A stretch of DNA of 34,468 nt, taken from positions 1-34,468 of the forward strand of contig JAGCFA010000042.1 in the NCBI GenBank assembly GCA_017650375.1. Reading direction: 5' to 3'. Positions 1,263-14,235 of the stretch are shown piece after piece. The notes below the pieces were generated by a model. That model saw only the letters and a program-made list of their open reading frames with translations, was not told the DNA's origin and searched no databases. Origin of the DNA: Alphaproteobacteria bacterium. GTDB taxonomy: Bacteria > Pseudomonadota > Alphaproteobacteria > CAAHEQ01 > UBA3637. A program made the translations under genes and the position numbers. Every line of letters starts with the position of its first letter. The stretch's first letter is position 1.

Positions 1263-1871
1263 ATGGCACTCAGGAACCTTAGCGCTGAACGTCGTTTTTA
1301 TATCAGTCTGATTGCGGCTGTTTTACTGTTGATTTTATTGGTTTTGAATTGTTTAACAGCCCTTCAAACTGGGGGAAAGTTGCAGGTTATTGCTCAATTT
1401 TTTCCCGCTAATTTGCGTGAATTCTCTCATTTGAATACCCTTTCTGCTCTTGATTCTGTGCGGAAAAGAAGAGATCGTGAAAAAATAGATGAAATGTTGG
1501 TGCGCTACTATCTGGAAATGCGCTATACGCAAATTCCGGACAGAAACGAGATGCTCTATCGATGGGGTAGAGGAGGGCCTTTGTACCTCCTTTCGTTGCC
1601 CAGTTTATACGCAGAATTTGTGAAGGATTTTGATCACAAGCTTGAATCTATCAGAAACGTTCAGACAATTAAGATTATTAAAGTGGAAAAAGATCAAGAT
1701 AATGTTTTCAGAGTGAATTTTTTTATCTATGAACATATTCCACAGAAAGCACCTATTGAAAAGGAAAAAACAGCAACCATTACTTTCGGATATGAACCCA
1801 AAAGAATCAGACACTCATCTGTTTTTTCAAATCCATATGGTTTGATGGTTATTCGTTTTCATGAAAGCTAA
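1263..1871 (+). CDS. virB8: VirB8-family T4SS inner-membrane protein, divergent paralog 1 (short N-terminus)
   Basis: Bitopic layout with one N-terminal TM helix (ISLIAAVLLLILLVLNCL) followed by a ~150-aa periplasmic domain. It shares blocks with the downstream canonical VirB8: MLVRYYLEMRY/LIREYILARY, RNEMLYRWG/EVENRWG, and the C-terminal SNPYGLMVIRF versus TNPLGFVVTSF (VirB8 NPxG signature). Confidence 0.8.
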   Translation: MALRNLSAERRFYISLIAAVLLLILLVLNCLTALQTGGKLQVIAQFFPANLREFSHLNTLSALDSVRKRRDREKIDEMLVRYYLEMRYTQIPDRNEMLYRWGRGGPLYLLSLPSLYAEFVKDFDHKLESIRNVQTIKIIKVEKDQDNVFRVNFFIYEHIPQKAPIEKEKTATITFGYEPKRIRHSSVFSNPYGLMVIRFHES

Positions 1872-1953: not shown

Positions 1954-2130
1954 ATGAAAAAAATAAGTTTATTGTTGATCGTATTGGGGCTTTTTGTTTT
2001 GGTTGCCTGTGCATCTGAATATGAAAAAGAACCTGTCGGCATTGGCTCAAATTATTCAGAGTTAAAGCGTTCTCCTTGTGCTTGTTTGGAATTAAAAAAA
2101 GCGCCACAACTGCCTAGTTGGTTGACCTAA
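1954..2130 (+). CDS. virB7: VirB7-like small outer-membrane lipoprotein (58 aa, below the ORF-track cutoff)
   Basis: My translation is MKKISLLLIVLGLFVLVACASEYEKEPVGIGSNYSELKRSPCACLELKKAPQLPSWLT. It has a signal peptide plus lipobox L-V-A-C (Cys19). A strong SD, AAGGAGAG (1941-1948), sits upstream of ATG 1954. The gene lies between two virB8 genes and just upstream of virB9, which is the expected VirB7 slot. Two additional Cys residues occur in the mature part. Confidence 0.6.
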   Translation: MKKISLLLIVLGLFVLVACASEYEKEPVGIGSNYSELKRSPCACLELKKAPQLPSWLT

Positions 2131-2143: not shown

Positions 2144-2848
2144 ATGGTCCAGCAAAACGAAGAAAAAACGACAGAAACTTTAAAGGAAGAGCGCTATATT
2201 TGGATGGCTAGATCTTTTTCTTTGGTCGCTTTTTTGGCGTTGTTGGCGAACATTTTTATGATAGTTGCTTTGTCTGGATTAACCCCTTTGGTTCGCGTGC
2301 AGCCGTTTTACCTGATTACCCAGAGTAAAGAACAGCAGGTTGTTTCTGTGGAACGTTTTTCCAGTTTGAAAACGAAAGATTTACAGCAATCGCTTATTCG
2401 TGAATATATATTGGCCAGATATGGTATTTCTTCTGATAAATCAGAGGTGGAAAATCGATGGGGGGTTAACGGGCTTGTTTTTGCGATGAGTACAGATCCC
2501 GTATATCAAGATTTTACACTCAATGAATCAGAAGCTCTTTTAAGACGTATGGATGAAGAAGGATTAACCCGTAATGTTAAAATTAAAAGCGTTGTTCCCT
2601 CTCGTCCTCGGTCAGATGGGCGTTATATTTGGAAGGTTGAAATGGACACAATTGATATGAGCCAAAAAGCGGGGGATAAGTTTACGCAATCTTGGACAGT
2701 TTCTTTGGCTGTTGATTTTTTGCCGACACAATCTATGAACTGGGATAAAAGATTAACAAATCCTTTGGGCTTTGTGGTGACCAGTTTTGGTCGGGTTCCT
2801 TCTGAAGATAGAGCAAAAATCTTAAGAGGCTATGATTTTGGAGATTAA
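2144..2848 (+). CDS. virB8: VirB8 T4SS inner-membrane protein, paralog 2 (canonical)
   Basis: Cytoplasmic N-terminus, a single TM helix (FSLVAFLALLANIFMIVALSGL) and an NTF2-like periplasmic domain ending in the VirB8 signature NPLGFVVTSF. Expected family is PF04335. Confidence 0.9.
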   Translation: MVQQNEEKTTETLKEERYIWMARSFSLVAFLALLANIFMIVALSGLTPLVRVQPFYLITQSKEQQVVSVERFSSLKTKDLQQSLIREYILARYGISSDKSEVENRWGVNGLVFAMSTDPVYQDFTLNESEALLRRMDEEGLTRNVKIKSVVPSRPRSDGRYIWKVEMDTIDMSQKAGDKFTQSWTVSLAVDFLPTQSMNWDKRLTNPLGFVVTSFGRVPSEDRAKILRGYDFGD

Positions 2849-2965
2849 AACGTAAGATATTTAAACAAAAAATAATTTTTGTGTTAAATTTTAAAAAAAG
2901 TATGGACTTTCTGATTATTTTTGTTTAAAATGCTCATAATAAATTAAAATAATTTGGGAGGAAAG

Positions 2966-4642
2966 ATGAAAAAATCGATTTTTTGTCCGTTTCTTAAGGG
3001 GAGTCTTATTGCTTTTCTAATGGCTTTTTCAGCACAGGCTCAGGTTCAAACACCTACTGATACAGAAAGTGCTATGATGTTGGATGCCATCAACCAAACC
3101 GCTGGTTCTTTTGATCAGGTGGATTTGGGTTATATTCATTCTTTGGGTATGCAACAAAAAGCATGGAATAATCCGATGGAACACTTGGGAGAAGGGCAAA
3201 CAAAGCCGGGATATTCTCGCTATAATTGGATGCCGGATACCGTTCTTCCTATCCGTTTGCGTGAAGGAATGATGACTTTGATCAATTTGCCTGCATGGGA
3301 ATTAATTGAGAAAGTTCATATCGGATCCCCAGAATCTTTCGGCGGGGAAATTGTGGCGCCGAATTCTTTGTTGCTGTATGCAGATCCGTCCTATATCGGT
3401 GTTGATAGTAATATGATTATTTTTGGTCGCTCTGGCAATCGGTATGTTTTTTACTTGCGCAGTGAAACCTTTAATACAGATAAAATTACTCAGTCTGTTG
3501 TGGATGTTTTAGTTGGTCCACGCTGGACACCTGTTGCTGATGGTGGTCAGATGGCAGAGGCCAACGGAGCTAGTTCAATGGCCGCAGCACCTAACCCTTC
3601 CAGTGGATTGACTACAAACGGAGCACGTTCGAACGTTGCCAGTTCTGCAGGGCCTAAAGATTGGTTGAAAACAATTCCTATGGATCCAGAAAGTATTCGT
3701 TTTGATTTGGATATGTTTATCCCGAATCCGGATGATGTGGATATTGCACCGGATAATATTTGGCGTGATAATATATTCACCTATATTGATTTGGGACCAA
3801 AAGCTTTGACAATGACGCAACGTCCCATTGTTACTTCTTTGGAACAAGGGACAGAAGTGCCGGTCGGATATCGCACCTCAGGCCCTAACAGTCGCTTGAT
3901 TGTTGTGGAAGCAATAGGGGATCTTGTTTTGCGTAATGGTAAAAAAATTATTTGTATTAAATTACGCAGAGATCCTGCTGCAGGATTAGAATATACAGAT
4001 TACAGCGGTTCTGTTTCAAACAACCAGAATTGGAATGGAATGCCGACCAATCCTGGGTTAGCTAATCCGTATCAATCTGACAGTGCACTGCTGGCGGGCG
4101 GTGGTGCTGTGTTGTATGATGCAGTTGAACCGGCAACTTCTTCAGGACTGAACCCGTACACATCGGTTAGAACTGAAAGAAATCACGGTTTGTATGGAAA
4201 TGAAGTAGCTCCTTATTGTTATGATGGCAAAATGTCAGGTCGTTGCTCCAACAAGAATGCAGTGAATGGATGGCAAGATCTAAGGGCAATTCCGAAAGAA
4301 GCTCGTCAATCTGTGCAAAATCAACAAGCTGTTCAAGATATTATTTCTTATAATTCTCAGGCCATTACACCGCTTGAAGGTGGGGAATCTATTGCTTTGG
4401 AATTTGGCACTGGGTTACAAATTTCAGAGTTAGAATCTCTGTGGAATAAAATTTACAGCAAGAATAAGGATATTTTGACAGGCTATGAACCGTATTATTC
4501 TGTAGATGCGACAGCAGATGGTGATGTGATGGAACTTTTCCGTTTGCGTGCGGGGATGGTGAAAGATGTATCGACAGCAGATGCTTTGTGTCGTAAAATC
4601 GGTCGTCGAGGCTTTTCTTGTTCTGTTGTTCGTATTCAATGA
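2966..4642 (+). CDS. virB9: VirB9/CagX/TrbG-family T4SS outer-membrane core protein with a long C-terminal extension ending in a SPOR-like domain
   Basis: The likely start is ATG 2966 after GGAGGA (the track begins at TTG 2954). Signal peptide MKKSIF...AFSAQA|QVQ. N-terminal VirB9 domain (YSRYNWMPDTVLPIRLREGMMTLINLP...NRYVFYLRSE). C-terminal VirB9 beta-sandwich (IWRDNIFTYIDLG...RLIVVEAIGDLVLRNGKKIICIKLRRD). About 220 extra residues follow. Confidence 0.85.
   Translation: MKKSIFCPFLKGSLIAFLMAFSAQAQVQTPTDTESAMMLDAINQTAGSFDQVDLGYIHSLGMQQKAWNNPMEHLGEGQTKPGYSRYNWMPDTVLPIRLREGMMTLINLPAWELIEKVHIGSPESFGGEIVAPNSLLLYADPSYIGVDSNMIIFGRSGNRYVFYLRSETFNTDKITQSVVDVLVGPRWTPVADGGQMAEANGASSMAAAPNPSSGLTTNGARSNVASSAGPKDWLKTIPMDPESIRFDLDMFIPNPDDVDIAPDNIWRDNIFTYIDLGPKALTMTQRPIVTSLEQGTEVPVGYRTSGPNSRLIVVEAIGDLVLRNGKKIICIKLRRDPAAGLEYTDYSGSVSNNQNWNGMPTNPGLANPYQSDSALLAGGGAVLYDAVEPATSSGLNPYTSVRTERNHGLYGNEVAPYCYDGKMSGRCSNKNAVNGWQDLRAIPKEARQSVQNQQAVQDIISYNSQAITPLEGGESIALEFGTGLQISELESLWNKIYSKNKDILTGYEPYYSVDATADGDVMELFRLRAGMVKDVSTADALCRKIGRRGFSCSVVRIQ
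4385..4639 (+). other. SPOR-like peptidoglycan-binding domain at the C-terminus of VirB9
   Basis: ESIALEFGTGLQISELESLWNKIYSKNKDILTGYEPYYSVDATADGDVMELFRLRAGMVKDVSTADALCRKIGRRGFSCSVVRIQ. This matches the alphaproteobacterial SPOR pattern: (Q/E)hG.....A...W..h.....hL.g..P.......g...hhRLR.G.......A..LC..h...G..C.VV. Confidence 0.6.
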
Positions 4643-4654: not shown

Positions 4655-7600
4655 ATGGTAAATAATCGGGAAAGTTTATCAGAACAATCAAAACGGCGTA
4701 CCAACTATCTGTTATTTGGGGTGGGTAGCGTTTTGCTTTTGTTCTTTTTGCTGGCGTGGTGCAGCATGCAGCCCGAAGAAAAAACAGAACGTCCTCGTGA
4801 GAATCCTGATGTTTTTAACCTTTATAGAGAAGGGGGAGATCCTGGAAAAGATGCTGATATGCCTGTTTTTGCCTCTCAAGGAGATGCACAGTTAATTATT
4901 ACACCACGAGAAGTGGTGATGGATAAAGTCATCATCGGTTCAGAAGTAGCTCATTCTGTTGTTTTGAGGGCGGAAAATGCCCCCTTATTGCTTAAGAAAA
5001 AGGAATTGGCAGAAAAAGACCAAAAAGAAGGTTTTGACTTGGGTGGTTCTTGTATGTCTCTGGATCGTTTGGAAAAGAACGAAGAATGTCTTTTAAAAGT
5101 TTCTTGGCATCCGACAGAATTGCGTAATATTCAAAATACCTTAACAATTACTTGGATTGAAGACAGCCGTTCCGTTTTTAAAGAAGAACGTTCTGTAATT
5201 ATTTTAAAAGGACAATCCACAGATTCTAAAGACTGTGTGATTTGTGAAGATATTCGTAAAGAGGCTGAACAGATTCCTGAAAAAAAACTCGGGACAAACG
5301 GAAAAGAAGAAAATTTAAATGGTGACGAAAAGAAAACCGCAGATTGTTTGATTAAGGATGACGATGATAAGATCATTGGTATTTGTCGTGGAGAATTAAT
5401 CCCCTTAAGTTTGAAGAATGAGTTATTAGGGAAAGTAGATGATAGTCATAATGTTATAGATGCAAATGGTCAAAAAATAGGTCGTTTGTTAGGAGATGAT
5501 ACCATTGTCAATTCTAAATTTGAAGTGATTGGGAAAGCCATTCCTTCTGTATTGACGGCCATGAAGGGAAATGGGCGCGTTTTTGGTAAGATTTCTGTTG
5601 ATAATAATGGTGTTTCTATTATTGATGCTAATGGAAAGATATTGGGTTTTCCCAATATTGATGGTCAGGTTGTAGATAAAGACGGTCAACCTATTGGTTT
5701 TTTAAGCCCTTGGGGCGGTGTCATTGATTCTATGGGGAACTTTTTGGGTGTAACGATGCCAGATGGTTCTGTGTTAAATGATAAAAATGAACGTGTAGCC
5801 TATATGCGTCCGATGGGATTGGCTGTTGATTCAAAGGGTATTTTGGTTGGGGGAATCGTGCCCCGTGGTATTGGTGTGGGAATTGGTCGCTCTTTAGGTG
5901 AAGTTTCTCTGAATGGGGATGTTAAAGATTCTTTCGGACAAGTTGTCGGACGGGTTTTGTTGGATCACTCTGTGGTAGATGCTCAAATGAATGATTTAGG
6001 TCGTGTGGTGCGCCAAGGGGTTATTATTGATACAAACGGCCAAGTGATTGGTTTTGTAAATTCTATAGGAGAAGCAGTTAATTTTGAAGGTAAGATTATT
6101 GGTCATGTTAGACCTGACGGGACTGTTTTTGCGGGTAAAAGATTTGTAGGATCTGTTATGAAAGAAGGTCGCGTTATCAAAGATGGTTGTCAGCAGATTG
6201 GGTCAGTTTATCCAGATGGTTCAGTGGTAAATTTGGCTTTAACAAAATTAGGCAATGTGACGTCAGAAGGAATTGCTTTGGATACTCGTCATCAGAAATT
6301 AGGTTTCATTTCTCCTTGGGGAACGGCGATTGCTAGTGGATGTCATTTGTTGGGACTATTGTCCTTAGATGGGGATGTAGTTTCGGTTGATGGAATGAGA
6401 ACTGGCTGTGTAAATTCGGATTTATCAGTTCAGAATTTACAAGGGGAAATATCTGGTCAAGTGACGCGTTTGGGATTGTTTGTGGACAATCAAAATCAAG
6501 TGATTGGGCGCGTGCGTTTAGATGGTCAGATTATGGACAATAAAGGAACAATTATCGGATGTTCATATGAAGCAAAAAAACATCCTGGTGTTCTTGTTTC
6601 CGATGAAGCACAAGGGGTCATTGTGGATGAAAATGGTCTTCCCTTAGAGGGGACTTTTATTGGGAATAAGGCTTATGACGAACGAGGGAATTGGTTGGGA
6701 AATGTTTATTTTAACGGTTGGGTTATTGGTGATAAAGGTAAGCTGATCGGACGTGTTCCTTTCTCTGGACTTGTGTTTGATGATAAAGGTCAAATTTTAG
6801 GCTCATATAATCAGAAAACAGGAACTTTGGTGGATACATCAGGGGATCGTTTGGGACGTGTTTTACCAGGCCTTTCAGTGATTAGTTTGGATGGAAAAGC
6901 TATTTTAGGAAAACTGATTCCTTTTGGAACGCCTTTTGTTGCTATGGATGGTACTTTTTTGGGCAATTTACGTTCGGATGGTTTGGTTGTAGATGGGGCA
7001 AAGTCTGTTGATGGAACGCTGTTGGCAAATGGTTCGATTATTGGTAAAGACAAAAAGCTGTTGGGGGGGATGATTTCTGCTGGACCAGTTATCGCCAGTG
7101 ACGGAAAATATGTTGGATTGTCTGTTGGCAACGGAGAAGTTGTTAATGCTCAAAATGTGAAGATTGGGCGTATGTTATCTAATGGATTAGCCATTTCAGA
7201 TGCCAACCAAGTTTTAGGACATGTTTTCCCAGAGCTTTCAATAGCTGTTTCAGCACGTGGTTTCATTGGCTTTTTAGAACCAAATATACAAGGAAGCCAA
7301 GATAATCCGTCGTACCAGTTACAGGTTAAAGATACAAAAGGAAATATGGCAGGAACGGTTTCCAGTACAGGTGTTGTTTTAGGGTTAAATAACACTGTTT
7401 TAGGGAATTTAGTGCCTGTAGCTCCGTTTGTTGATGGCAAAGGAAAATTGATCGGCTGGTCAAATTTTGAAGGTGGTGTTAATAATTTAGATGGGCGTTC
7501 CATTGGAACAGTTTTGCCTTCAGGAGCAGCTTTGGATAGTTCTCAAGATTTGTTTGCCAGCGTTGTGAATAATGCTGTTGCCGTGGATAATTTTGGGGCG

Positions 7601-10600
7601 TATTTGGGGCATTTTAACAGTCGCGGAGAAGTTTTGTCTGATCGAGGTGAACTTATTGCTCGTATTGGTCAAGGTGGTTTCCTTTCTAATGCAGACGGTA
7701 TGCTAATCGGTCAGGTTTTAAAACCTGGTGTAGCTGTTGATAACAGTGGTCGTTTTATGGGATGGACACGCTATGATGGCCAGATTGAAAACGGTGTTCA
7801 GGTTGTAGGACAAGTTGGTTTGGATGGTCATGTGTTTGATGCTGCTGGTCAAATGGTTGGCCGTTATTTACCGTTGGGAACGCCGGCCTTTAATGATGAT
7901 GAAAAGTCAGTAGGTTTCTTATCAGATAATGCTGAAGTAATGGATGCAGCCGGATTAAAATTAACCAAAATGGGATACGAACCTTTTGTAATGAATAAAG
8001 GGAACTTGGTTGCTCGGTTTATAGAAGGTGATAATTTCGTGACTTCTTTGGAACAAGGTGAAGTGATTGGAATGACAACCAATGATGGCTCTGTTATTCC
8101 TTTGACTTCTGATCGTTCTGTCGGATCGCTTAAAATGAATCGTCAATTCCTTTCTTCTCGTCAGATTAAAGGGGCTTTAGTTCCGATGGGTGTGCCGGTG
8201 ACACCAACGTTGGGAGTGATCGGCAGTGCAGAATTAAACGGGGAAATATTTAAGGCAGGAAAGCGTTCCGGAATTATAACTGGGATGGGATTGGTATATT
8301 CTCCATCCGGAGAATTAGTGGGAAGTGTTTTAACCCCAGGTGTTATCATTGATTCTAAAGGGGCTTTTGTTGGCCGTAGTTCTGGTACATCAGCGGTTTT
8401 TTCGGGCAATCAACAAATCGGTAATCAGTTAACCTTTGGTGCAGTTTTATCCACTTCCAATGAATGGCTAGGACATTCTATGAAAACGGGGGCTGTTGTT
8501 AATGCTCACGGTGTTTATCAAGGAATTATTGGTTCTAATGGATTGGCTGTTGGTCCAAATGGTGTTTTTGTCGGGCGTGTTTTGCCAGATGGATCAGTTG
8601 CCAGTGTATCTGATTCTTCAGTGTTTAATACAATGCCTTATATTGGTCATACAGTAGAACAAGGAATTGCTATAGAGTATTCAGAGAAAAATACTTCTTT
8701 GGGACATACAACAGCTAACGGTGATGTACTGGATTGGGGTGGCAAAAAAATCGCTCGTATTTCTGATAATGCTTTGGCTTTAGCTAGGAAAGAAGATAAA
8801 ACATTGCCATCGGCTCATATTTTCCCACTTATTTCCGCTATAGATGTTAAGGGAAATGTGATGGGAACAGTAACGTCAGATGGCCGTGTAATCTCTTATA
8901 AAGGTAAGGTCCTAGGAAAACTGGATAATGGGGGCCGTATTCGTTATTTAGAACCAAAAGATAAAGAAGAAAGTTTGAAAATCTTAGGGACAATTGTTCC
9001 AGACGGATTGGTTGTGAATGATTGTAAAATTGTGGGGCAAACGGCATATGATGGTCGAGTAATCAATGGCCAAGGTGTTGTTGTTGGGCGAATTAATACT
9101 GATAAATGGGCAATTGATGTCAATGGTAATAAAATTGGTCGTGTTGCTAAAAATAACCAACCTTGCATTACGGAAGATGGTAAATATTTAGGGCGGAGTT
9201 TGCCTAATTCTATTGTTGTTGATGTAAATGGGGTCCCGGTCGGATGTGCAACAAATTCAGGAGAGATGTTGGATTCTAAAGGCAATTTGCTCTGTAAGAT
9301 TGTTGAAAGAGGGCCTATTGTAGATGGTAATGGAGATATTATTGGTTATCAAGATGACAAAAATTGGGTATGGGATGGTGGGAAAGAACCCATTGGAACA
9401 GTGGATTGGGATAATAAGGCCTGGGATAATAATGGAAACCAAATTGGTATTGGAATTGGCGATCGGACTCTTTTAGATGGAGGTAATACACAAGGAGGAG
9501 ATGGCTGGATTTATAATAAAGAGGGAGAGCCTGTTATCTGGATAAACCCCGACACAGGAAATGCGGAAAATCCGGATGGCGTCGCAGGACTTCATAACTA
9601 TGTTTTGGGAAGAGGTTACTTTGAAGGATGTGATTTTATGGGCTTAGATGGGCGTAAGGTTGCGACGTTGATGGCTGATGGGACGATGCGTGATGAAAAT
9701 GGAGATTTATATGCAACGGTAACACCCAATGGAGATATGTATGAACCCAATGGTAATTTGATTGATCATATTCGTGGATTGGATGTATCCACTCAGTTGA
9801 AACAATGTGGGATGTCTGGTGCCGGAAAAGGGGCTAATCGTATTGTTAAAATTGGTGATCAGCCATTTTTTGTGGATCCCAAAGGTTCTGTCTATAACGA
9901 AGATAATGAAATTATCGGTTGGATGGGCGATGATGGTAAATTATATACCTTTAATAACAAGCCTATTACAGGGGATGTTGGTGGACGCAAACCGCCAGAA
10001 CCTCAAACCGTTGATATTCCAAAAGAAAAGTTAGAGGATTTTCAATCTCGTTTAGCAGAAAAACGCAAGAGTATGCGTGAAAAGTTTGGTAAGGGAACCT
10101 TGTTGATTCCGTCGCCGGAATTGCAAGCACGTGCTAAACCTAAAAAAGATACAGATTGGTCAAAGTTGGGTGTGAGTAAAGATTCTGTTTCAAGTTGGCC
10201 TGTAGATATGACCCATGTTATTTTAGAAGGAAAAGCTATTCCGGCTGTTTTGGCGCGTTCAATCGATTCTCGTTATCCGGATAGTTCCGCTTTGGCGATT
10301 GTTGAAAAGAACGTTTATGGGGAAGAAGGACGTAATATCTTGATTCCGGCAGGCAGTCGTTTGATCGGACAAGCAAGTACCGGACTCAATGCAGCTGGTG
10401 TGGCTAAGATTCAAATTAATTGGAAACGATTAATTCGTCCGGATGGATCAGCCTTTAATTTGGATGATTCGCCTTCTGGAGACGCACAAGGACGTGGTGG
10501 CGTGGCTGCATATCTGGATGCACAATTATGGAATAAATATGCAACGCCTGTTTTGTCGACTTTAGCAACTTCAGCAGTGGCTTATATGATGGCAACCAAT

Positions 10601-11077
10601 GATGATGTGACCACATCTAGCGGTGGTAGTAATGGTCAGCAACAGACGATGTCTCAGAAAGCACAAGCAGCAGCTGATGCACGTAAAAACTTTATTGATA
10701 TGATTCAAATTATTCTGGAAAAAATGATTGAAGAAGCAAATGAAGAACCTCCTGTTATTTATGTGCCAGCAGGAACACGGTTGGTTGTTTTCCCGAAAAA
10801 GGACTTGTGGCTGCGTTCTGTTACGGATGATGAAAAAGATGCCGAAAAGGAATTTGGACCACCTTCTACTGAAGCGCAAGTGCCAGATATGGATTCATGG
10901 GCAGAAAAGAGAAAATCTGAACGGGAAGAACAAGGGGCTTCGGAAAATACAGATGGTGCTTCTGAACAGGTTCCTCCAGATACGGTGGCACCGATTTATA
11001 ACGGGCAAGAAGATATGCCTGATTTGTCTGACAGAAAAGTGATGCCAGTCACGCAAGAAGATAAAAATATGTTTTAG
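4655..11077 (+). CDS. virB10: Giant VirB10/TrbI-family T4SS core protein (2140 aa) with an internal repeat expansion
   Basis: N-terminus: short basic tail plus TM helix YLLFGVGSVLLLFFLLAWC. C-terminus (nt ~10150-10815): TrbI/VirB10 barrel blocks AIPAVLARSIDS, NILIPAGSRLIGQ, INWKRLIRPDGSAF, GRGGVAAYLD, the two antenna helices (NKYATPVLSTLATSAVAYMMA and QKAQAAADARKNFIDMIQIILEKMIE), and VIYVPAGTRLVVFPKKDLWL. An acidic ~85-aa tail follows. It sits between virB9 and virB11 as expected. Confidence 0.9.
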   Translation: MVNNRESLSEQSKRRTNYLLFGVGSVLLLFFLLAWCSMQPEEKTERPRENPDVFNLYREGGDPGKDADMPVFASQGDAQLIITPREVVMDKVIIGSEVAHSVVLRAENAPLLLKKKELAEKDQKEGFDLGGSCMSLDRLEKNEECLLKVSWHPTELRNIQNTLTITWIEDSRSVFKEERSVIILKGQSTDSKDCVICEDIRKEAEQIPEKKLGTNGKEENLNGDEKKTADCLIKDDDDKIIGICRGELIPLSLKNELLGKVDDSHNVIDANGQKIGRLLGDDTIVNSKFEVIGKAIPSVLTAMKGNGRVFGKISVDNNGVSIIDANGKILGFPNIDGQVVDKDGQPIGFLSPWGGVIDSMGNFLGVTMPDGSVLNDKNERVAYMRPMGLAVDSKGILVGGIVPRGIGVGIGRSLGEVSLNGDVKDSFGQVVGRVLLDHSVVDAQMNDLGRVVRQGVIIDTNGQVIGFVNSIGEAVNFEGKIIGHVRPDGTVFAGKRFVGSVMKEGRVIKDGCQQIGSVYPDGSVVNLALTKLGNVTSEGIALDTRHQKLGFISPWGTAIASGCHLLGLLSLDGDVVSVDGMRTGCVNSDLSVQNLQGEISGQVTRLGLFVDNQNQVIGRVRLDGQIMDNKGTIIGCSYEAKKHPGVLVSDEAQGVIVDENGLPLEGTFIGNKAYDERGNWLGNVYFNGWVIGDKGKLIGRVPFSGLVFDDKGQILGSYNQKTGTLVDTSGDRLGRVLPGLSVISLDGKAILGKLIPFGTPFVAMDGTFLGNLRSDGLVVDGAKSVDGTLLANGSIIGKDKKLLGGMISAGPVIASDGKYVGLSVGNGEVVNAQNVKIGRMLSNGLAISDANQVLGHVFPELSIAVSARGFIGFLEPNIQGSQDNPSYQLQVKDTKGNMAGTVSSTGVVLGLNNTVLGNLVPVAPFVDGKGKLIGWSNFEGGVNNLDGRSIGTVLPSGAALDSSQDLFASVVNNAVAVDNFGAYLGHFNSRGEVLSDRGELIARIGQGGFLSNADGMLIGQVLKPGVAVDNSGRFMGWTRYDGQIENGVQVVGQVGLDGHVFDAAGQMVGRYLPLGTPAFNDDEKSVGFLSDNAEVMDAAGLKLTKMGYEPFVMNKGNLVARFIEGDNFVTSLEQGEVIGMTTNDGSVIPLTSDRSVGSLKMNRQFLSSRQIKGALVPMGVPVTPTLGVIGSAELNGEIFKAGKRSGIITGMGLVYSPSGELVGSVLTPGVIIDSKGAFVGRSSGTSAVFSGNQQIGNQLTFGAVLSTSNEWLGHSMKTGAVVNAHGVYQGIIGSNGLAVGPNGVFVGRVLPDGSVASVSDSSVFNTMPYIGHTVEQGIAIEYSEKNTSLGHTTANGDVLDWGGKKIARISDNALALARKEDKTLPSAHIFPLISAIDVKGNVMGTVTSDGRVISYKGKVLGKLDNGGRIRYLEPKDKEESLKILGTIVPDGLVVNDCKIVGQTAYDGRVINGQGVVVGRINTDKWAIDVNGNKIGRVAKNNQPCITEDGKYLGRSLPNSIVVDVNGVPVGCATNSGEMLDSKGNLLCKIVERGPIVDGNGDIIGYQDDKNWVWDGGKEPIGTVDWDNKAWDNNGNQIGIGIGDRTLLDGGNTQGGDGWIYNKEGEPVIWINPDTGNAENPDGVAGLHNYVLGRGYFEGCDFMGLDGRKVATLMADGTMRDENGDLYATVTPNGDMYEPNGNLIDHIRGLDVSTQLKQCGMSGAGKGANRIVKIGDQPFFVDPKGSVYNEDNEIIGWMGDDGKLYTFNNKPITGDVGGRKPPEPQTVDIPKEKLEDFQSRLAEKRKSMREKFGKGTLLIPSPELQARAKPKKDTDWSKLGVSKDSVSSWPVDMTHVILEGKAIPAVLARSIDSRYPDSSALAIVEKNVYGEEGRNILIPAGSRLIGQASTGLNAAGVAKIQINWKRLIRPDGSAFNLDDSPSGDAQGRGGVAAYLDAQLWNKYATPVLSTLATSAVAYMMATNDDVTTSSGGSNGQQQTMSQKAQAAADARKNFIDMIQIILEKMIEEANEEPPVIYVPAGTRLVVFPKKDLWLRSVTDDEKDAEKEFGPPSTEAQVPDMDSWAEKRKSEREEQGASENTDGASEQVPPDTVAPIYNGQEDMPDLSDRKVMPVTQEDKNMF
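5360..9980 (+). repeat. Protein-level tandem array of degenerate 16-18-residue repeats inside virB10, on the order of 80 units. Consensus approx G-x-[VI]-[VI]-D-x-x-G-x-x-[IL]-G-x-[VL]-x-x-[DNP]
   Basis: Consecutive units can be read directly, e.g. DGQVVDKDGQPIGFLSPW / GGVIDSMGNFLGVTMPD / GSVLNDKNERVAYMRPM / GLAVDSKGILVGGIVPR / GDVKDSFGQVVGRVLLD / HSVVDAQMNDLGRVVRQ / GVIIDTNGQVIGFVNSI / GEAVNFEGKIIGHVRPD. The period persists to ...GSVYNEDNEIIGWMGDDGKLYTF. The underlying DNA is diverged: I saw no long identical nucleotide repeats by eye. Confidence 0.8.
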
Positions 11078-11087: not shown

Positions 11088-12077
11088 ATGAGTACTTTGT
11101 CAATTTCCGATACATATAAAGTTTTAGAAATGACCTTAAGGCCGATTGCTTATTGGTATTCTCAAGATAATGTGGAAGAAGTGGCTATTAATAATCCAGG
11201 AGGGATTTGGCTTCGTTTAAGGGGAAAACATGCCCACCCTTGGCATTATTATGAAGATCCTAAATTAACGCGTGAATATTTAAATGATATTATGTATATC
11301 ATCGCCAATACATATGATTTGAACTATGATCCTGTTGGGGGAATTCCGGTCGTATTTGCAGCTTTGCCGGGCGGACATCGTTTTTCTGGGATTGCTGGAC
11401 GTAATGTGATGTATGATAATGATGATTTAACCGGTGGGGTGGCTATGGCCATTCGTGTTTATCGGGAAGATTTAGGTATCAGTATGGAACAGTTTGGGCT
11501 GGTTCAAGGCGGTCGGCTACGCCAAATCAATAAGTTAAAGGATGTGGAAGATCCAGATGATCCTTATGAACGGTTAATTTTGTCAATCAGACGCGGTGAT
11601 CATATTTTGATTAGTGGTGCAACTGCGACAGGTAAAACGACTTTTTTGAATAATATGATTAAGTTATTGGATGAACATAAGCGCATTTTAACTATTGAAG
11701 ATACGCGGGAATTGATTATTACTCAGCCTAATCGTGTGCATATTGTAATGCCTAGAACGGAAGCAGCAAATACGTTTACCTATAAAAACGTGATTGATTT
11801 GGCTGTGCGTTTTACACCGGATTGTATTATTGGTGGGGAAATTTCAACAACAAATGCGGGGGCTCTATGGGAATTGATGGGCTCAGGGCATGACAACTGT
11901 TTTGCCACTATCCATGCGGAAAATCCGGATGCAGCTTATAAAGCTTTTATCGGACGTATTATGCATACTTATCCGGCGATGGATCGGGATAAGCTTTATA
12001 AAGAAATGAAAGAAAAATTGCGTGTAGTTCAGATTAATCGCGATGGCAATATTCGTGCGATTACTGAGATTACTTAA
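11088..12077 (+). CDS. virB11: VirB11 T4SS traffic ATPase
   Basis: SD AGGAGA upstream. Walker A GATATGKTT, Asp box/Walker B region ILTIEDTRELI, His box GSGHDNCFATIHA. Typical length of 329 aa. Expected family is PF00437. Confidence 0.95.
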   Translation: MSTLSISDTYKVLEMTLRPIAYWYSQDNVEEVAINNPGGIWLRLRGKHAHPWHYYEDPKLTREYLNDIMYIIANTYDLNYDPVGGIPVVFAALPGGHRFSGIAGRNVMYDNDDLTGGVAMAIRVYREDLGISMEQFGLVQGGRLRQINKLKDVEDPDDPYERLILSIRRGDHILISGATATGKTTFLNNMIKLLDEHKRILTIEDTRELIITQPNRVHIVMPRTEAANTFTYKNVIDLAVRFTPDCIIGGEISTTNAGALWELMGSGHDNCFATIHAENPDAAYKAFIGRIMHTYPAMDRDKLYKEMKEKLRVVQINRDGNIRAITEIT

Positions 12078-12622: not shown

Positions 12623-13082
12623 TTTTGTGTTTTTTCTTTTGTTTGTCCTTTCCACGCCTGTTTTAGGGGCAGAATATGCTTCATTGAAATACGATAAGGT
12701 GAACTTGCGTACGGGGCCGGGGGAACGCTTTCCGATTTTATGGGTTTATCAGGAAAAAAACTTTCCGGTTGAAGTGTTGGACAGCTTTGAAATTTGGCGT
12801 CAAATTCGCGAAAAAGATGGCACGCTTGGTTGGGTACATCAAAATATGTTGAAAAAAACACGTTATGCTATTGTTGAACGGGAAGCTTCTCTTTTAAAAA
12901 AAGATGATCCTCAAGCGCCGGTTGTGGCACTGGTTCAACCGGGAGTGATTGCTAAGGTTGAGGAATGTCCAAAGGGAAATTATTGTCGGATCAGCGTATC
13001 AGATGAAACTCATGCCAAAAAAGGCTGGTTTTTGCGTTCAAACCTATGGGGATTGGACAAAGGCGAAATTATTGAACGTTAG
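12612..13082 (+). CDS. Secreted bacterial SH3-domain protein (COG3807-like)
   Basis: The likely start is ATG 12612, which overlaps the upstream stop. Signal peptide MKNSFVFFLLFVLSTPVLGA. Two SH3b-like segments (VNLRTGPGERFPILWVY...GTLGWVH and ASLLKKDDPQAPVVALVQPGVIAKVEEC...GWFLRSNLWG). Confidence 0.7.
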   Translation: MKNSFVFFLLFVLSTPVLGAEYASLKYDKVNLRTGPGERFPILWVYQEKNFPVEVLDSFEIWRQIREKDGTLGWVHQNMLKKTRYAIVEREASLLKKDDPQAPVVALVQPGVIAKVEECPKGNYCRISVSDETHAKKGWFLRSNLWGLDKGEIIER

Positions 13083-14176
13083 CTTTTTACTTTTCTCAAC
13101 AATTTTTTAAATTTTTCGCACAGGGGATTTTGTTCAGGAATCTCTGAGAAACTTTCCCACAATTCCTTTTGCTTCTTAGTTAGGTTTGTTGGGATTTCCA
13201 CTTGGAAGATGACATGCAAATCGCCACGTTTCTTTCCGCGCAAGGCTGGCATACCTAACCCATCAAACACTTTTTCTGTGCCTGATTGCAATCCGGCCGG
13301 TACTTTATATTCCTTAAGTTCCCCATCCAAAGTCGGAATCTGAACAGTTCCCCCAAATACGGCTGTTGTCAAGGGTAGTGGCATTTTCAAAAACAATTCG
13401 GTCCCCTGGCGTTCAAAAAGGGGATGTTTTTCCACCGTCAAAAACACATATAAATCGCCAGTCACACCATGGGGGGCATAGTTCCCCTCGCCGGACAGAC
13501 GCATGCGTACGCCTGTTTCCACACCGGCTGGGATATTGACTTCCAAAGTTTTCTTTTGGCGCGTCCGCCCACTCGCGCGACATTTAGGACAAGCCTTTTG
13601 AATGGTTTTCCCTGTGCCATGGCAAGTGGGGCATTCTGTTTCCACCACAAAAAAGCCTTGACGTTGCCTAATATGGCCCATTCCACGACAAGTGGCGCAG
13701 GTTTGTACGCCTTCTCCGCCTTCCCCATGACATTCGGGACAAGCCCCAAAATGTTCCACTTCAATTTCTTTTTTAAGGCCAGTCAGAGCTTCTTCCAAAG
13801 TAATTGTCATGTCTGCGCGAATATCTTCCCCGCGAATCCGGCGTGCTTCGCCAGAACGGTGCATGCCAAACATTTCGGAAAAAATGTCTTCAAAGCCTGT
13901 GCCTGAAAAATCAAAGCCTCCAAAGCCGTTTCCGAATCCACCTTGCCCCATACCAGCCTTATAGGCTTCATGTCCAAATTGATCATAGCGTGCGCGTTTA
14001 TCTTCGTCTTTTAAGGTATCATAGGCTTCCACCAATTCTTTAAATTTCTTTTCGGCCTCTTTATCCCCTGCATGATGGTCGGGATGGCAATCTTTGGCTT
14101 TTACGCGAAAAGCCTGCTTAATTTCGTTGGCAGAAGCTGACTTTGAAACACCTAAAATATCATAATAATCGCGCAT
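13079..14176 (-). CDS. dnaJ: Chaperone DnaJ (Hsp40)
   Basis: J domain MRDYYDILGV...HPD, a G/F-rich region and four CxxCxGxG zinc-finger repeats. The true start is probably the MRDYY Met at 14176. The track's longer start at 14209 runs into an intergenic hairpin. Confidence 0.97.
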   Translation of the reverse strand: MRDYYDILGVSKSASANEIKQAFRVKAKDCHPDHHAGDKEAEKKFKELVEAYDTLKDEDKRARYDQFGHEAYKAGMGQGGFGNGFGGFDFSGTGFEDIFSEMFGMHRSGEARRIRGEDIRADMTITLEEALTGLKKEIEVEHFGACPECHGEGGEGVQTCATCRGMGHIRQRQGFFVVETECPTCHGTGKTIQKACPKCRASGRTRQKKTLEVNIPAGVETGVRMRLSGEGNYAPHGVTGDLYVFLTVEKHPLFERQGTELFLKMPLPLTTAVFGGTVQIPTLDGELKEYKVPAGLQSGTEKVFDGLGMPALRGKKRGDLHVIFQVEIPTNLTKKQKELWESFSEIPEQNPLCEKFKKLLRKVKS

Positions 14177-14208
14177 GTCATATCCTTTTATGTTCTTTAG
14201 TATGCACA

Positions 14209-14235
14209 AAAGGCGGGCCTTAAAAGTCCGCCTTT
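14209..14235 (-). terminator. Stem-loop in the dnaK-dnaJ intergenic region (possible attenuator or partial terminator)
   Basis: AAAGGCGGGC / CTTAAAA / GTCCGCCTTT gives a 10-bp stem including one G-U pair, with only a short U-tract on the - strand RNA. This would fit partial termination that sets the DnaK:DnaJ ratio. Confidence 0.4.

What the first reader, a model, noticed from the sequence alone, without database searches (positions are those of the whole stretch)
5360..9980. Novel 16-18-residue Gly/Asp repeat (G-x-V-V-D-x-x-G-x-x-I-G-x-V-x-x-D), ~80 tandem copies, diverged at DNA level
Reading the translation in 17-residue steps gives a persistent register: a small or Gly residue, two beta-branched hydrophobics, Asp/Asn, x-x-Gly, x-x-[IL]-Gly, x-[VL]. 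The alternating hydrophobic pattern with fixed glycines suggests stacked beta-hairpins or a solenoid. It is not the pentapeptide-type repeat of DotG, nor the CagY repeat modules, nor YD/RHS, hexapeptide or RTX repeats. Equivalent units have different codons, for example FLSPWGGVID at ~5700 versus FISPWGTAIA at ~6307. So the array looks ancient and structurally constrained, rather than a recombination-driven, phase-variable array like CagY.
Basis: seen in the sequence. Interest (0 to 1): 0.75.

Follow-up and report, generated by a model that had tools for sequence, protein, structure and literature searches.

The report
Giant VirB10 with beta-hairpin repeat array
The repeat is real: about 90 diverged 17-residue beta-hairpins fill the periplasmic middle of a 2140-residue VirB10 secretion-system protein from an uncultured gut alphaproteobacterium, but the hairpin type is already catalogued (Pfam beta-flower/DUF3659, a structural relative of YD/RHS repeats), so only its use as a fixed-length giant VirB10 body looks undescribed.

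Summary
ORF 4655-11077 (+) encodes a 2140-aa VirB10/TrbI protein. Residues 231-1778 (nt 5345-9988) form about 90 tandem 17-residue units, G-x-V-V-D-x-x-G-x-x-I-G-x-V-x-P-D (period-17 autocorrelation z = 15.9). There is no DNA-level repeat.

"Novel repeat" is not supported. The array scores 183.7 bits (E 9e-55) on Pfam PF21785 (5-fold beta-flower) and also hits PF21784. Homologues carry DUF3659 and RHS_repeat hits. AlphaFold models (pLDDT about 89-90, pTM 0.76 and 0.84) find Rhs cocoons and teneurins as their best PDB matches (E 1e-23), but with TM of only about 0.1.

"Ancient and constrained" is supported. More than 110 full-length homologues (32-57% identity), all from uncultured gut Alphaproteobacteria, are collinear with no whole-unit indels in the core. 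Units match their positional orthologues better than their paralogues.

The gene sits in a VirB8 / VirB7-like / VirB8 / VirB9 / VirB10 / VirB11 cluster that matches the Rickettsiales rvh gene order. Shorter arrays of the same hairpin occur in other VirB10 proteins, in one DotG/IcmE and in one CpaB.

Best reading: a rigid periplasmic scaffold that enlarges the type IV secretion core, analogous to the CagY and DotG repeat regions but invariant. The function is inferred. The three-dimensional supercoil could not be inspected.

The parts
4655..11077 (+). Giant VirB10/TrbI-family gene (2140 aa)
   Evidence: ORF and translation. Pfam TrbI E 1.2e-34. NCBIfam T4SS_VirB10 E 8e-33 and ComB10 E 5e-27. 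Identical protein P0001 is named 'TrbI/VirB10 family protein [Alphaproteobacteria bacterium]'.
4706..4762 (+). Single N-terminal transmembrane helix (aa about 18-36), preceded by a basic cytoplasmic N-terminus
   Evidence: A Kyte-Doolittle window at aa 15-33 scores 1.67 and is the only such segment in the protein. Sequence YLLFGVGSVLLLFFLLAWC is seen. The bitopic inner-membrane topology is inferred from canonical VirB10.
4886..5224 (+). PapD/ASH-like Ig-fold domain (aa about 78-190) with conserved Cys133/Cys145
   Evidence: AF2 model 1 is strand-rich here with pLDDT about 85-95. Foldseek PDB hits at prob 1.0 include CEP192 ASH/PapD-like domain 6fvi, HYDIN 2e6j and fimbrial chaperones. Weak Pfam hits to Cep192_D4 and ASH. 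The two Cys are conserved in 51/51 homologues.
5234..5245 (+). Invariant CxxC inside the motif S-T-D-S-K-D-C-V-I-C (aa 194-197)
   Evidence: Cys194 and Cys197 are conserved in 51/51 homologues. The motif was used as a search pattern and found family-wide. Function unknown.
5345..9988 (+). Array of about 90 tandem 17-residue beta-hairpin units (aa 231-1778), the feature in the finding
   Evidence: Periodicity. Unit segmentation. Pfam Bflower_2, Bflower and DUF3659 hits along the array. AF2 pLDDT about 90 with pTM 0.76 and 0.84. 182 strands.
9305..9814 (+). Distal, less regular part of the array (aa about 1551-1720), which is the main length-variable zone in distant homologues
   Evidence: Insertions of 10-210 aa of extra hairpin units map to query positions 1552-1720 in P0022, P0025, P0066, P0081 and P0073. 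One further hot spot lies at aa 637-641 in P0019.
6188..6562 (+). Four invariant cysteines inside the array (aa 512, 563, 585, 636). Others are at aa 1457/1531 and 1659/1718.
   Evidence: Conserved in 51/51 homologues (48/51 for 1659 and 1718). Spacings are 51 aa (three units, same register) or 73-74 aa (hairpin tip to the base of unit i+4). That they form periplasmic disulfides is an inference.
10220..10813 (+). C-terminal TrbI/VirB10 barrel domain (aa 1856-2053)
   Evidence: Pfam TrbI aa 1856-2053. The profile of the family hits solved ComB10 2bhv (E 8e-25), Xanthomonas VirB10 6gyb, TrwE 7o3j and TraF 3jqo.
1263..1871 (+). VirB8 paralogue 1
   Evidence: Pfam VirB8 E 1.4e-6. One N-terminal TM segment.
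1954..2130 (+). 58-aa lipoprotein, VirB7-like by size, position and lipobox
   Evidence: Translation MKKISLLLIVLGLFVLVAC... has an L-V-A-C lipobox. It is a called gene in the public contigs. Assignment as VirB7 is an inference from position, by analogy with rvhB7.
2144..2848 (+). VirB8 paralogue 2
   Evidence: Pfam VirB8 E 1e-19.
2954..4642 (+). VirB9/CagX-family protein (558-562 aa, with a C-terminal extension)
   Evidence: Pfam CagX E 2e-13 over aa 88-336. Signal-like N-terminus.
11088..12077 (+). VirB11-type ATPase
   Evidence: Pfam T2SSE E 1.5e-20.

Best explanation
The region is the middle of a giant VirB10, the subunit of a type IV secretion system (T4SS) that spans from inner to outer membrane. 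The system is chromosomal and rvh-like, and belongs to an uncultured gut alphaproteobacterium.

The protein has these parts in order: a short cytoplasmic N-terminus, one inner-membrane helix, a PapD/ASH-like Ig domain, a CxxC motif, about 90 consecutive 17-residue beta-hairpins (about 1550 aa), a short linker, and the canonical TrbI/VirB10 barrel domain that forms the outer-membrane cap together with VirB9 and VirB7.

The hairpins belong to the [DN]xxG-tipped family that Pfam files as beta-flower and DUF3659, which is structurally closest to YD/RHS repeats. Here they take the place of the short proline-rich periplasmic linker of ordinary VirB10.

AlphaFold predicts that they pack into one rigid body rather than floppy beads.

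My inference is that the 13-16 VirB10 copies of one machine together build a large, fixed-geometry periplasmic scaffold (a collar, ring or cage) between the inner-membrane complex and the outer-membrane cap. It is probably stapled by conserved disulfides. This would be the same role proposed for the repeat regions of CagY and DotG, but without their recombinational length variation.

Shown here: the identity of the protein, the hairpin repeat, its family, its conservation and collinearity, and the T4SS context. Inferred: the periplasmic location, the disulfides, the stoichiometry and the scaffold function.
For: Identity and context:
- TrbI domain and a single N-terminal TM segment.
- Neighbours are VirB8, a VirB7-like lipoprotein, VirB8, VirB9 and VirB11, in the same order as the Rickettsia rvh islet rvhB8-II / rvhB7-rvhB8-I-rvhB9-II-rvhB10-rvhB11.

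Repeat and family:
- Period 17 with z = 15.9, 90 units and 182 strands.
- Bflower_2 at 183.7 bits. Sub-fragments covering aa 231-739 each pass the Pfam cutoff on their own.
- The [DNEQ]xxG tip motif defined in PMC10584680 is present in column 5-8 of the unit.

Rigid body:
- pLDDT 89.3 with pTM 0.76 for aa 60-800, and pLDDT 89.8 with pTM 0.84 for aa 790-1800.

Constraint:
- Collinear homologues with no whole-unit indels down to 34% identity.
- Positional orthologues are the best-matching units.
- Length changes are limited to aa about 640 and about 1550-1720.
- No recombination substrate in the DNA.
- Invariant Cys pairs fit an oxidising compartment.

Generality:
- The family is found in at least 176 stretches of species-representative genomes, all labelled as gut or rumen Alphaproteobacteria MAGs apart from a few differently labelled bins.
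- Shorter arrays of the same hairpin lie in the same position in 9 of 10 sampled smaller proteins, all TrbI-domain proteins.
- One of these is a DotG/IcmE encoded next to DotH/IcmK.
- The same array also occurs in a CpaB/RcpC, another periplasmic machine subunit.

Analogy:
- The DotG repeat region has been proposed to form the 13-fold periplasmic 'collar', and the CagY repeats likewise.
Against: - No experiment or in situ structure exists for these uncultured organisms.
- I could not inspect model coordinates or the predicted aligned error. Closed 5-fold flowers, a continuous hairpin spiral and a cocoon-like shell therefore remain undistinguished.
- Foldseek matches to Rhs shells have TM of only 0.08-0.10.
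- The periplasmic location is inferred from topology only. CagY's repeat region has been suggested to be surface-exposed (cited in PMC6761968).
[quoted passage not shown] A ligand-binding role is therefore not excluded.
- No VirB2-B6 or VirD4 is recognisable in the window or in 10 kb upstream. The upstream genes have no Pfam hits, so completeness of the system is unproven.
Confidence: 0.6

Rival explanations
1. String of discrete closed beta-flower barrels. The 90 hairpins would fold as about 18 separate five-petal (or four- or six-petal) mini-barrels, as in the Pfam families. These would act as ligand-binding modules for peptidoglycan or membrane lipid, tethering the T4SS to the cell wall or membranes.
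For: - The best Pfam match is the 5-fold beta-flower model, and the 4-fold model also hits.
- Cys pairs spaced 73-74 aa apart (unit i to unit i+4) could close a five-petal ring.
Against: - There is no 5-unit (85-aa) super-period. Autocorrelation decays monotonically, and unit-lag similarity shows only a weak 3-unit signal.
- The 17-residue register runs on without linkers.
- pTM values of 0.76 and 0.84 over 741 and 1011 residues argue against independently moving beads.
- The Cys pairs 512-585 and 563-636 would straddle adjacent five-unit blocks.
- The tip-to-base geometry of those Cys positions fits poorly with side-by-side petals (inference).
Confidence: 0.2
2. Rhs/YD-type cocoon. The array would spiral into a hollow shell that encapsulates a cargo or part of the protein itself, as in Rhs toxins, TcB/TcC and teneurins.
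For: - The top Foldseek PDB hits of model 2 are Rhs cores (8qjc E 1.2e-23 prob 0.96, 7pq5, 7q97, Tse5), teneurins and TcB/TcC. These alignments span about 1100-1200 columns.
- RHS_repeat Pfam hits occur in homologues.
- The very high pTM fits a compact closed body.
Against: - TM-scores are only 0.06-0.10 with RMSD of about 30 Angstrom.
- This protein has no RHS_repeat hit at E <= 1.
- No Rhs core, aspartyl-protease, plug or toxin domain is detected.
- The family profile finds no Rhs or teneurin sequence in the PDB.
- The unit is 17 aa. The YD unit is usually given as about 20-22 aa (my own knowledge, not measured here). The YD dipeptide is absent from the consensus.
Confidence: 0.1
3. Surface-exposed, host- or prey-contacting adhesin or antigenic region, varied in the way CagY is.
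For: - CagY, the VirB10 homologue of Helicobacter pylori, carries large repeat regions that change by intragenic recombination and has been described as decorating the surface (PMC6761968).
- The host organisms live in animal guts.
Against: - The array lies between the inner-membrane helix and the outer-membrane TrbI domain, which is topologically periplasmic.
- There are no DNA repeats to recombine.
- Copy number and unit identity are conserved across species.
- The conserved Cys pairs and hydrophobic positions indicate purifying selection rather than diversifying selection.
Confidence: 0.07
4. Chance or compositional artefact: a Gly/Asp/Val-rich low-complexity stretch with no true repeat.
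For: High GC skew and Gly-rich composition across 5000-10000.
Against: - Period-17 z = 15.9 against composition-preserving shuffles.
- Curated HMM hits far above their cutoffs.
- A high-confidence hairpin model.
- More than 110 conserved homologues.
Confidence: 0.01

Closest known systems
Pfam beta-flower families PF21785 (Bflower_2, 5-fold) and PF21784 (Bflower, 4-fold), clan CL0395 (Durairaj et al., Nature 2023, PMC10584680), with PF12396 (DUF3659)
   Same: The same short beta-hairpin unit with a [DNEQ]xxG tip. HMM scores are far above the curated cutoffs. Homologues carry DUF3659 hits and that NCBI name.
   Different: The described beta-flowers are small closed barrels of 8, 10 or 12 strands (about 96 residues), often stand-alone lipoproteins. 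Here there are about 182 strands in one uninterrupted array inside a VirB10. There is no 4-, 5- or 6-unit super-period, and the whole is predicted as one rigid body. Closure into flowers was not verified.
YD/RHS repeat shells (Rhs T6SS effectors such as 8qjc, 7q97 and 7pq5, TcB/TcC, and teneurins)
   Same: A continuous strip of beta-hairpins with Asp-x-x-Gly-type tips. These are the best structural matches in the PDB, at E 1e-23 to 1e-17. RHS_repeat Pfam hits occur in homologues.
   Different: TM-score is about 0.1, so the global shape is not shown to be the same. This protein has no RHS_repeat hit. The consensus has no YD motif. No cocoon-plugging, autoproteolysis or toxin domain is found. 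No sequence-profile hit to solved Rhs proteins.
CagY (Helicobacter pylori Cag T4SS VirB10 homologue)
   Same: A roughly 2000-aa VirB10-family protein whose extra mass is a large repeat region N-terminal to the TrbI domain. That region has been proposed to extend from the periplasmic ring to a collar.
   Different: CagY repeats are DNA-level repeats that recombine to change length. Here there are no DNA repeats and the unit number is fixed. The repeat sequence and fold are different.
DotG/IcmE (Legionella Dot/Icm T4BSS VirB10 homologue)
   Same: A VirB10-family protein with a repeat-rich middle region, proposed to form the 13-fold collar. At least one uncultured gammaproteobacterial IcmE, encoded next to DotH/IcmK, carries the same beta-flower/DUF3659/RHS-like hairpins.
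   Different: Legionella DotG has variable numbers of 10-aa or 'pentapeptide' repeats with low-confidence structure predictions. This array has 17-aa hairpins, a fixed number of units and a high-confidence prediction. No Pentapeptide Pfam hit was found.
Rickettsiales vir homologue (rvh) T4SS
   Same: A chromosomal T4SS with duplicated VirB8 and the local gene order B8 / B7 / B8 / B9 / B10 / B11.
   Different: No virD4 follows virB11 here; a dUTPase-like gene does. I did not compare RvhB10 itself. Its ordinary size is stated from my own knowledge. Phylogenetic relatedness was not tested.

Membership tests
VirB10/TrbI family | C-terminal TrbI/VirB10 beta-barrel domain | tested here: met
   Pfam PF03743 at 120.2 bits against a cutoff of 35, aa 1856-2053. 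The family profile hits solved ComB10, VirB10, TrwE and TraF.
VirB10/TrbI family | Bitopic inner-membrane anchor: a short cytoplasmic N-terminus plus one TM helix | tested here: met
   One hydrophobic segment at aa 15-33, and no others.
VirB10/TrbI family | Encoded with VirB8, VirB9 and VirB11 partners | tested here: met
   Pfam VirB8 (twice), CagX and T2SSE on the flanking genes, plus a lipobox mini-protein.
VirB10/TrbI family | NCBIfam equivalog score for VirB10 | tested here: not met
   NF038091 scores 113.6 bits against a cutoff of 220. Only the domain matches, and the protein is far larger than the model.
Beta-flower (PF21785/PF21784) | HMM score above the Pfam gathering threshold | tested here: met
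   183.7 bits against 38 (Bflower_2) and 50.5 against 25 (Bflower). The three fragments covering aa 231-739 each exceed 38 bits.
Beta-flower (PF21785/PF21784) | Semi-conserved [DNEQ]xxG motif at the hairpin tip | tested here: met
   Column 5 is D/N in 77% and column 8 is G in 83% of matched positions.
Beta-flower (PF21785/PF21784) | Closed shallow barrel of 8, 10 or 12 strands with 4-, 5- or 6-fold symmetry | tested here: inconclusive
   No 4-, 5- or 6-unit super-period. pTM of 0.76 and 0.84 indicates one rigid body.
YD/RHS repeat proteins | Pfam RHS_repeat (PF05593) match | tested here: not met
   No hit at E <= 1 for the window protein. It is met in some homologues.
YD/RHS repeat proteins | Hairpin strip folded as a hollow cocoon superposable on solved shells | tested here: inconclusive
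   Foldseek E 1.2e-23 with prob 0.96, but TM 0.08-0.10 and RMSD of about 30 Angstrom.
YD/RHS repeat proteins | Rhs core with aspartyl autoprotease and a C-terminal toxin or cargo | tested here: not met
   No such domains in the Pfam or NCBIfam scans. The C-terminus is a TrbI domain.
CagY-type repeat region | DNA-level direct repeats that allow in-frame recombination and length variation | tested here: not met
   TRF finds none. The longest exact repeat is 14 nt, equal to the shuffle expectation. Orthologues are collinear.
DotG pentapeptide/10-mer repeat region | Pentapeptide-type or [KR]xAG[FY]...[LI] 10-aa repeats | tested here: not met
   No Pentapeptide family among the Pfam hits at E <= 1. 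The period is 17, not 5 or 10, apart from a minor lag-10 peak with z = 4.9.
rvh-like T4SS | Duplicated VirB8 and the gene order B8 / B7 / B8 / B9 / B10 / B11 | tested here: met
   compared with the R. typhi operon map in PMC4676284.
rvh-like T4SS | Phylogenetic affinity of components to Rickettsiales Rvh proteins; multiple VirB6, VirB4 and VirB9 paralogues; VirD4 | not tested
   No phylogeny was made. No VirB4, VirB6 or VirD4 is recognisable in the window or in 10 kb upstream.

The most novel reading that the evidence does not exclude
The about 90 hairpins may not form Pfam-style closed flowers or an Rhs cocoon. They may instead form a previously unseen continuous beta-hairpin super-structure with inter-turn disulfide staples. 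Thirteen to sixteen copies would assemble into a megadalton periplasmic cage or collar of fixed dimensions. That would define a new architectural class of expanded T4SS, widespread in uncultured gut and rumen Alphaproteobacteria. The same module would have been recruited independently into DotG/IcmE and CpaB. It would also be the first VirB10 repeat region that can be modelled with confidence, which could be used to test what the 'collar' of expanded T4SSs does.
Probability: 0.3. Interest if true: 0.7.

Novelty: new variant of a known kind. Interest (0 to 1): 0.45.

Why it matters
VirB10 is the only T4SS subunit that spans both membranes. The two best-studied expanded systems, Cag and Dot/Icm, both carry large unresolved repeat regions in their VirB10 homologues, and the role of those regions (the 'collar') is unknown. 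One reason given is that the DotG repeat region lacks a confident structure prediction (bioRxiv 10.1101/2023.03.22.533729).

This family offers a third kind of expansion, even larger than the other two. It is invariant in unit number and is predicted at pLDDT of about 90 and pTM of up to 0.84. It could therefore serve as a tractable model for how such regions build the periplasmic part of the machine.

It also shows that a conserved, chromosomally encoded T4SS is a hallmark of a widespread but uncultured alphaproteobacterial lineage of human, ruminant, rabbit and horse guts. That points to contact-dependent interaction with host cells or other microbes.

Finally, it extends the recently described beta-flower/DUF3659 hairpin family from small stand-alone barrels to 1500-residue arrays, and links it structurally to YD/RHS repeats.

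The repeat itself is not new, so the original claim of novelty should be marked down.

Tried and rejected
1. An HMM built from single 17-aa units and iterated with hmmsearch found only about 39 units. It was too insensitive, so I replaced it with a wrap-around profile alignment.

2. I tested mutual information between repeat columns at unit lags 0-8, to infer which hairpins touch. Far lags served as the null. No signal emerged, and the Z-scores were biased by sample size. This was uninformative.

3. A search for a higher-order period gave only a weak 3-unit (51-aa) signal of about 3 standard errors. It is not enough to fix the number of hairpins per turn.

4. Spacing of tight strand-to-strand connections in the DSSP strings shows no periodic pattern.

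5. A sequence search of the array against PDB chains gave no hits with phmmer. The family profile hit only the TrbI domain.

6. Literature searches for VirB10 + DUF3659, for RF32 + 'type IV secretion' + Alphaproteobacteria, and for RF32/CAG-239/'secretion system' found nothing relevant. The ten 'beta-flower' papers found show no T4SS link in the listed titles; I read only Durairaj et al..

7. Pfam scans of the six genes upstream of the cluster in a related locus, and of a 1384-aa upstream ORF in a distant locus, gave no hits. VirB3, VirB4 and VirB6 partners were therefore not located.

8. Model coordinates and PAE are not exposed by the tools. Closed-flower, spiral and cocoon geometries could not be told apart.

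9. Minus-strand ORFs inside the array (6811-7131, 7150-7503 and 8944-9285) were judged to be by-products of a long conserved plus-strand gene and were not pursued.

Full report
**What is at the coordinates**

The finding (nt 5360-9980) lies inside one long plus-strand ORF, 4655-11077, of 2140 codons.
- Its C-terminus (aa 1856-2053) is a TrbI/VirB10 domain. Pfam gives E 1.2e-34 and 120 bits against a cutoff of 35. NCBIfam gives T4SS_VirB10 E 8e-33 and ComB10 E 5e-27.
- A profile of the family hits the solved structures of ComB10 (2bhv, E 8e-25), Xanthomonas VirB10 (6gyb), TrwE of R388 (7o3j) and TraF of pKM101, and only through this domain.
- The N-terminus has a basic stretch followed by the only hydrophobic helix of the protein, at aa 15-33. 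This is the classical VirB10 bitopic inner-membrane topology.
- An identical protein is already in NCBI as 'MAG: TrbI/VirB10 family protein [Alphaproteobacteria bacterium]'.

**Check of the observation**

The repeat is real.
- BLOSUM62 autocorrelation over aa 236-1776 peaks at lag 17 (z = 15.9 against 200 shuffles). Harmonics appear at lags 34, 51 and 68, and nothing comparable is seen in the N- and C-terminal flanks.
- A wrap-around alignment to a 17-column profile keeps one register from aa 231 to aa 1778 (nt 5345-9988) with very few indels. It gives 90 units, of which 57 are exactly 17 residues and 79 are 16-18 residues.
- The consensus is G-x-[VAI]-[VIL]-[DN]-x-x-G-x-x-[ILV]-G-x-[VIL]-x-P-[DN]. 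Frequencies are G12 88%, G8 83%, G1 67% and D/N5 77%.
- At DNA level there is no repeat. Tandem Repeats Finder returns nothing. The best direct repeat is 60 nt at 72% identity. The longest exact repeat is 14 nt, within the 11-16 nt range of codon-shuffled controls.
- Units are on average 40% identical in DNA and 22% in protein.

**What the repeat is**

It is not a new repeat family.
- The protein scores 183.7 bits (E 9e-55, 12 stretches) on Pfam PF21785, '5-fold beta-flower', and 50.5 bits on PF21784, '4-fold beta-flower'.
- When the array is cut into nine pieces, the three covering aa 231-739 each pass the Pfam cutoff. Later pieces match more weakly, and aa 1246-1409 does not match at all. 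DUF3659 (PF12396) also appears.
- Durairaj et al. (Nature 2023, PMC10584680) created these Pfam families for a fold found in AlphaFold models. It is a shallow barrel of 8, 10 or 12 short antiparallel strands whose 'petals' are beta-hairpins with a semi-conserved [DNEQ]xxG tip. [quoted passage not shown]
- Homologues of the window protein carry pre-computed PF21784, PF21785 and PF12396 hits, and about one in eight also carries PF05593 (RHS_repeat). Some are named 'DUF3659 domain-containing protein' by NCBI.

**Structure prediction**

I ran two AlphaFold2 jobs, each using an alignment of the query segment with 49 collinear homologues.
- aa 60-800: mean pLDDT 89.3, pTM 0.76.
- aa 790-1800: mean pLDDT 89.8, pTM 0.84.
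- DSSP shows a monotonous pattern of a 5-residue strand, 4-residue turn, 3-residue strand and 5-residue loop. There are 182 strands in aa 231-1780, which is about 91 hairpins.
- Values of pTM this high over 741 and 1011 residues mean the predictor places essentially all hairpins in one rigid body, not as independently moving beads. This is my inference from the definition of pTM.

Foldseek against the PDB gave two kinds of match.
- Model 1 mostly found its N-terminal domain. Residues about 78-190 form a PapD/ASH-like Ig fold (CEP192 6fvi, HYDIN 2e6j and fimbrial chaperones, all at prob 1.0).
- Model 2, which is pure array, found Rhs cocoons as top hits: 8qjc (E 1.2e-23, prob 0.96), 7pq5, 7q97 and Tse5. 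Teneurin YD shells and TcB/TcC followed. The alignments span about 1100-1200 columns, but TM-scores are only 0.06-0.10 and RMSD is about 30 Angstrom.

So the local architecture is that of the YD/RHS class, a continuous strip of Asp/Gly-tipped hairpins. The global supercoil is either different or simply cannot be superposed. The tools do not expose coordinates or PAE. I therefore could not decide between closed five-petal flowers, an open spiral and a cocoon.

Indirect clues on the supercoil:
- There is no 4-, 5- or 6-unit sequence super-period. There is only a weak 3-unit one, where lags 3, 6 and 9 are positive at about 3 standard errors.
- Cysteines inside the array are invariant at aa 512, 563, 585 and 636, and again at 1457/1531 and 1659/1718. 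A further pair near 411/484 is present in 80% of homologues.
- The Cys spacings are either 51 aa (the same register, three units apart) or 73-74 aa (a hairpin tip to the base of unit i+4). This pattern suggests contacts between successive turns of a spiral, and fits an oxidising, periplasmic location. Both points are inference.

**Evolutionary behaviour**

- A search of 5.8 billion proteins found more than 110 full-length homologues of 2063-2609 aa at 32-57% identity, with a few more divergent ones at 26-28%. Every source name that identifies an organism says Alphaproteobacteria MAG, apart from one bin labelled Lactobacillales.
- A scan of GTDB species representatives found 176 encoding stretches. 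The 76 loci retained come from human (Hadza, Nepal and others), goat, sheep, yak, buffalo, roe deer, rabbit and horse gut or rumen MAGs.
- Among the 17 closest homologues (42-57% identity), no insertion or deletion in the array exceeds 10 residues, and none is a whole unit.
- Among 51 homologues down to 34% identity, the 1541-residue region has only about 20-90 gapped positions.
- The positional orthologue is the best-scoring unit for 46 of 57 query units in a 57%-identical homologue, and for 21 of 57 in a 35%-identical one. Chance is about 1 in 57.
- In more distant, longer homologues the extra length maps to two places only: aa about 637-641 and the irregular distal part at aa about 1550-1720. 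There, runs of very regular 'DKDGNLIGxV' hairpins are inserted.
- The array is therefore old. Each hairpin has its own identity and the core unit number is fixed.

**Genomic context**

- The gene order is VirB8 (1263-1871), a 58-aa lipoprotein with an LVAC lipobox (1954-2130, VirB7-like), VirB8 (2144-2848), VirB9/CagX (2954-4642), the giant VirB10, then a VirB11 ATPase (11088-12077).
- The rest of the window is housekeeping: dUTPase-like, DnaJ, DnaK, BipA, ProS, TrmD and others. The system is therefore chromosomal.
- The order B8 / B7 / B8 / B9 / B10 / B11 with a duplicated VirB8 is that of the Rickettsia rvh islet, as described in PMC4676284.
- No VirB2-B6 or VirD4 is recognisable in the window or in 10 kb upstream. 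The upstream genes have no Pfam hits.

**How general is the module?**

- An exhaustive phmmer search of 1.84 billion representative proteins with aa 231-739 found only 182 hits at E <= 1e-3.
- Besides the giant proteins and their fragments, I sampled ten smaller hits of about 700-1970 aa. Nine are TrbI-domain proteins with a shorter Bflower_2/DUF3659/RHS_repeat array in the same position. The tenth is a CpaB/RcpC Flp-pilus assembly protein carrying the array.
- One of the nine (P0179/P0276) is named icmE and is encoded directly after a DotH/IcmK gene in a gammaproteobacterial MAG. The same hairpin module therefore also fills the DotG position of at least one type IVB system.
- In the most distant alphaproteobacterial loci the giant gene is split into two adjacent ORFs. 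The first has the TM helix, ASH domain and hairpins. The second has hairpins and TrbI.

**Most likely mechanism**

- Shown: a VirB10 whose short periplasmic linker is replaced by an Ig domain plus about 1550 residues of rigid, position-specifically conserved hairpins, in a T4SS operon.
- Inferred: the array is periplasmic, because it lies between the inner-membrane helix and the outer-membrane TrbI domain and has conserved Cys pairs.
- Inferred: VirB10 is present in 13-16 copies per machine. The figure of 13 for DotG is; 14-16 for other systems is my own knowledge. On that basis the arrays would add roughly 2-2.7 MDa of beta-structure, forming a collar, ring or cage between the inner-membrane complex and the outer-membrane cap.
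- This is the role proposed for the repeat regions of DotG and CagY. Their collar is absent from minimal conjugative systems that lack such regions.
- The difference is that DotG and CagY repeats vary in number by recombination, whereas this array is fixed. That argues for a dimension-setting structural role rather than antigenic variation.
- I put about 0.6 on this reading.
- Rivals are ligand-binding strings of closed flowers (0.2), an Rhs-like cocoon (0.1), a surface-exposed variable region (0.07) and a chance artefact (0.01).

**Novelty and score**

- The repeat unit is known, and the protein is already annotated in databases at domain level.
- What I could not find described is the architecture: a 90-hairpin, fixed-length VirB10 body conserved across a whole gut alphaproteobacterial lineage, and the recurrence of the module in other VirB10 proteins, a DotG and a CpaB.
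- I rate it a new variant of a known kind, with interest 0.45.
- It is useful to T4SS structural biology because, unlike the DotG repeat region, this one is predicted with high confidence. It does not overturn anything.

Noticed in passing
L063:9767-13069 and 13069-17823; the same pattern in L064, L065, L066, L070, L072 and L076: In the most divergent related loci (human-gut MAGs, 26-27% identity) the giant VirB10 is split into two abutting ORFs. The first (about 1040-1140 aa) has the TM helix, ASH domain and Bflower/DUF3659/RHS_repeat hairpins. The second (about 1255-1620 aa) has hairpins and TrbI. Together they total about 2700 aa. The split recurs in seven independent MAGs, so it is probably real rather than a sequencing frameshift.
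   Followed up: partly
L079:8001-10415 (protein P0179): An 804-aa protein named icmE or 'YD repeat-containing protein', from a gammaproteobacterial MAG, is encoded directly downstream of DotH/IcmK. It carries the same Bflower_2/DUF3659/RHS-like hairpin array in front of its TrbI domain. Some type IVB DotG proteins therefore use this module instead of the Legionella-type repeats.
   Followed up: partly
protein P0158 (900 aa; cluster members named CpaB): A Flp-pilus assembly protein CpaB/RcpC from Gammaproteobacteria MAGs carries a long Bflower_2/Bflower/DUF3659 array. The hairpin module has therefore been recruited into a second kind of envelope-spanning machine.
   Followed up: no
window 1954-2130 (+): A 58-aa ORF between the two VirB8 genes encodes a lipoprotein signal with an LVAC lipobox. 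It is probably the VirB7 equivalent and sits in the position of rvhB7 in Rickettsia. It is below the ORF-length cutoff used at first.
   Followed up: partly
window 4886-5245 (+), aa 78-197 of the VirB10: A PapD/ASH-like Ig domain (Foldseek prob 1.0 to CEP192, HYDIN and fimbrial chaperone domains) is followed by an invariant S-T-D-S-K-D-C-V-I-C motif (CxxC). I do not know of such a domain in canonical VirB10. Its function is unknown.
   Followed up: partly
window 2954-4642 (+): The VirB9/CagX homologue is 558-562 aa. The CagX domain covers only aa 88-336, leaving a C-terminal extension of about 225 residues with no Pfam hit.
   Followed up: no
window 1-1246 (+) and L077:1-6592: Six consecutive genes upstream of the VirB8-B11 cluster have no Pfam hit. 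They are 789+, 310, 285, 272, 268 and 520 aa, and the last is the truncated first ORF of the window. In the related locus L002, five of the six syntenic upstream ORFs have one hydrophobic segment, N-terminal in four of them. They are syntenic in related loci and may be lineage-specific T4SS components.
   Followed up: partly
window 26354-28579 (+): A 371-aa protein with a C-terminal double zinc ribbon is followed by a 324-aa protein matching the ART-PolyVal ADP-ribosyltransferase family (E 8e-9). This could be a toxin or effector near a T4SS.
   Followed up: no
window 5345-9988, unit level: There is a weak three-unit (51-aa) super-period in unit-specific sequence deviations, with lags 3, 6, 9, 12 and 15 positive. 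Residue autocorrelation at lag 51 (z = 10.8) is at least as strong as at lag 34 (z = 10.2). This is unexplained. It may reflect ancient duplication in three-unit blocks, or about three hairpins per structural turn.
   Followed up: partly
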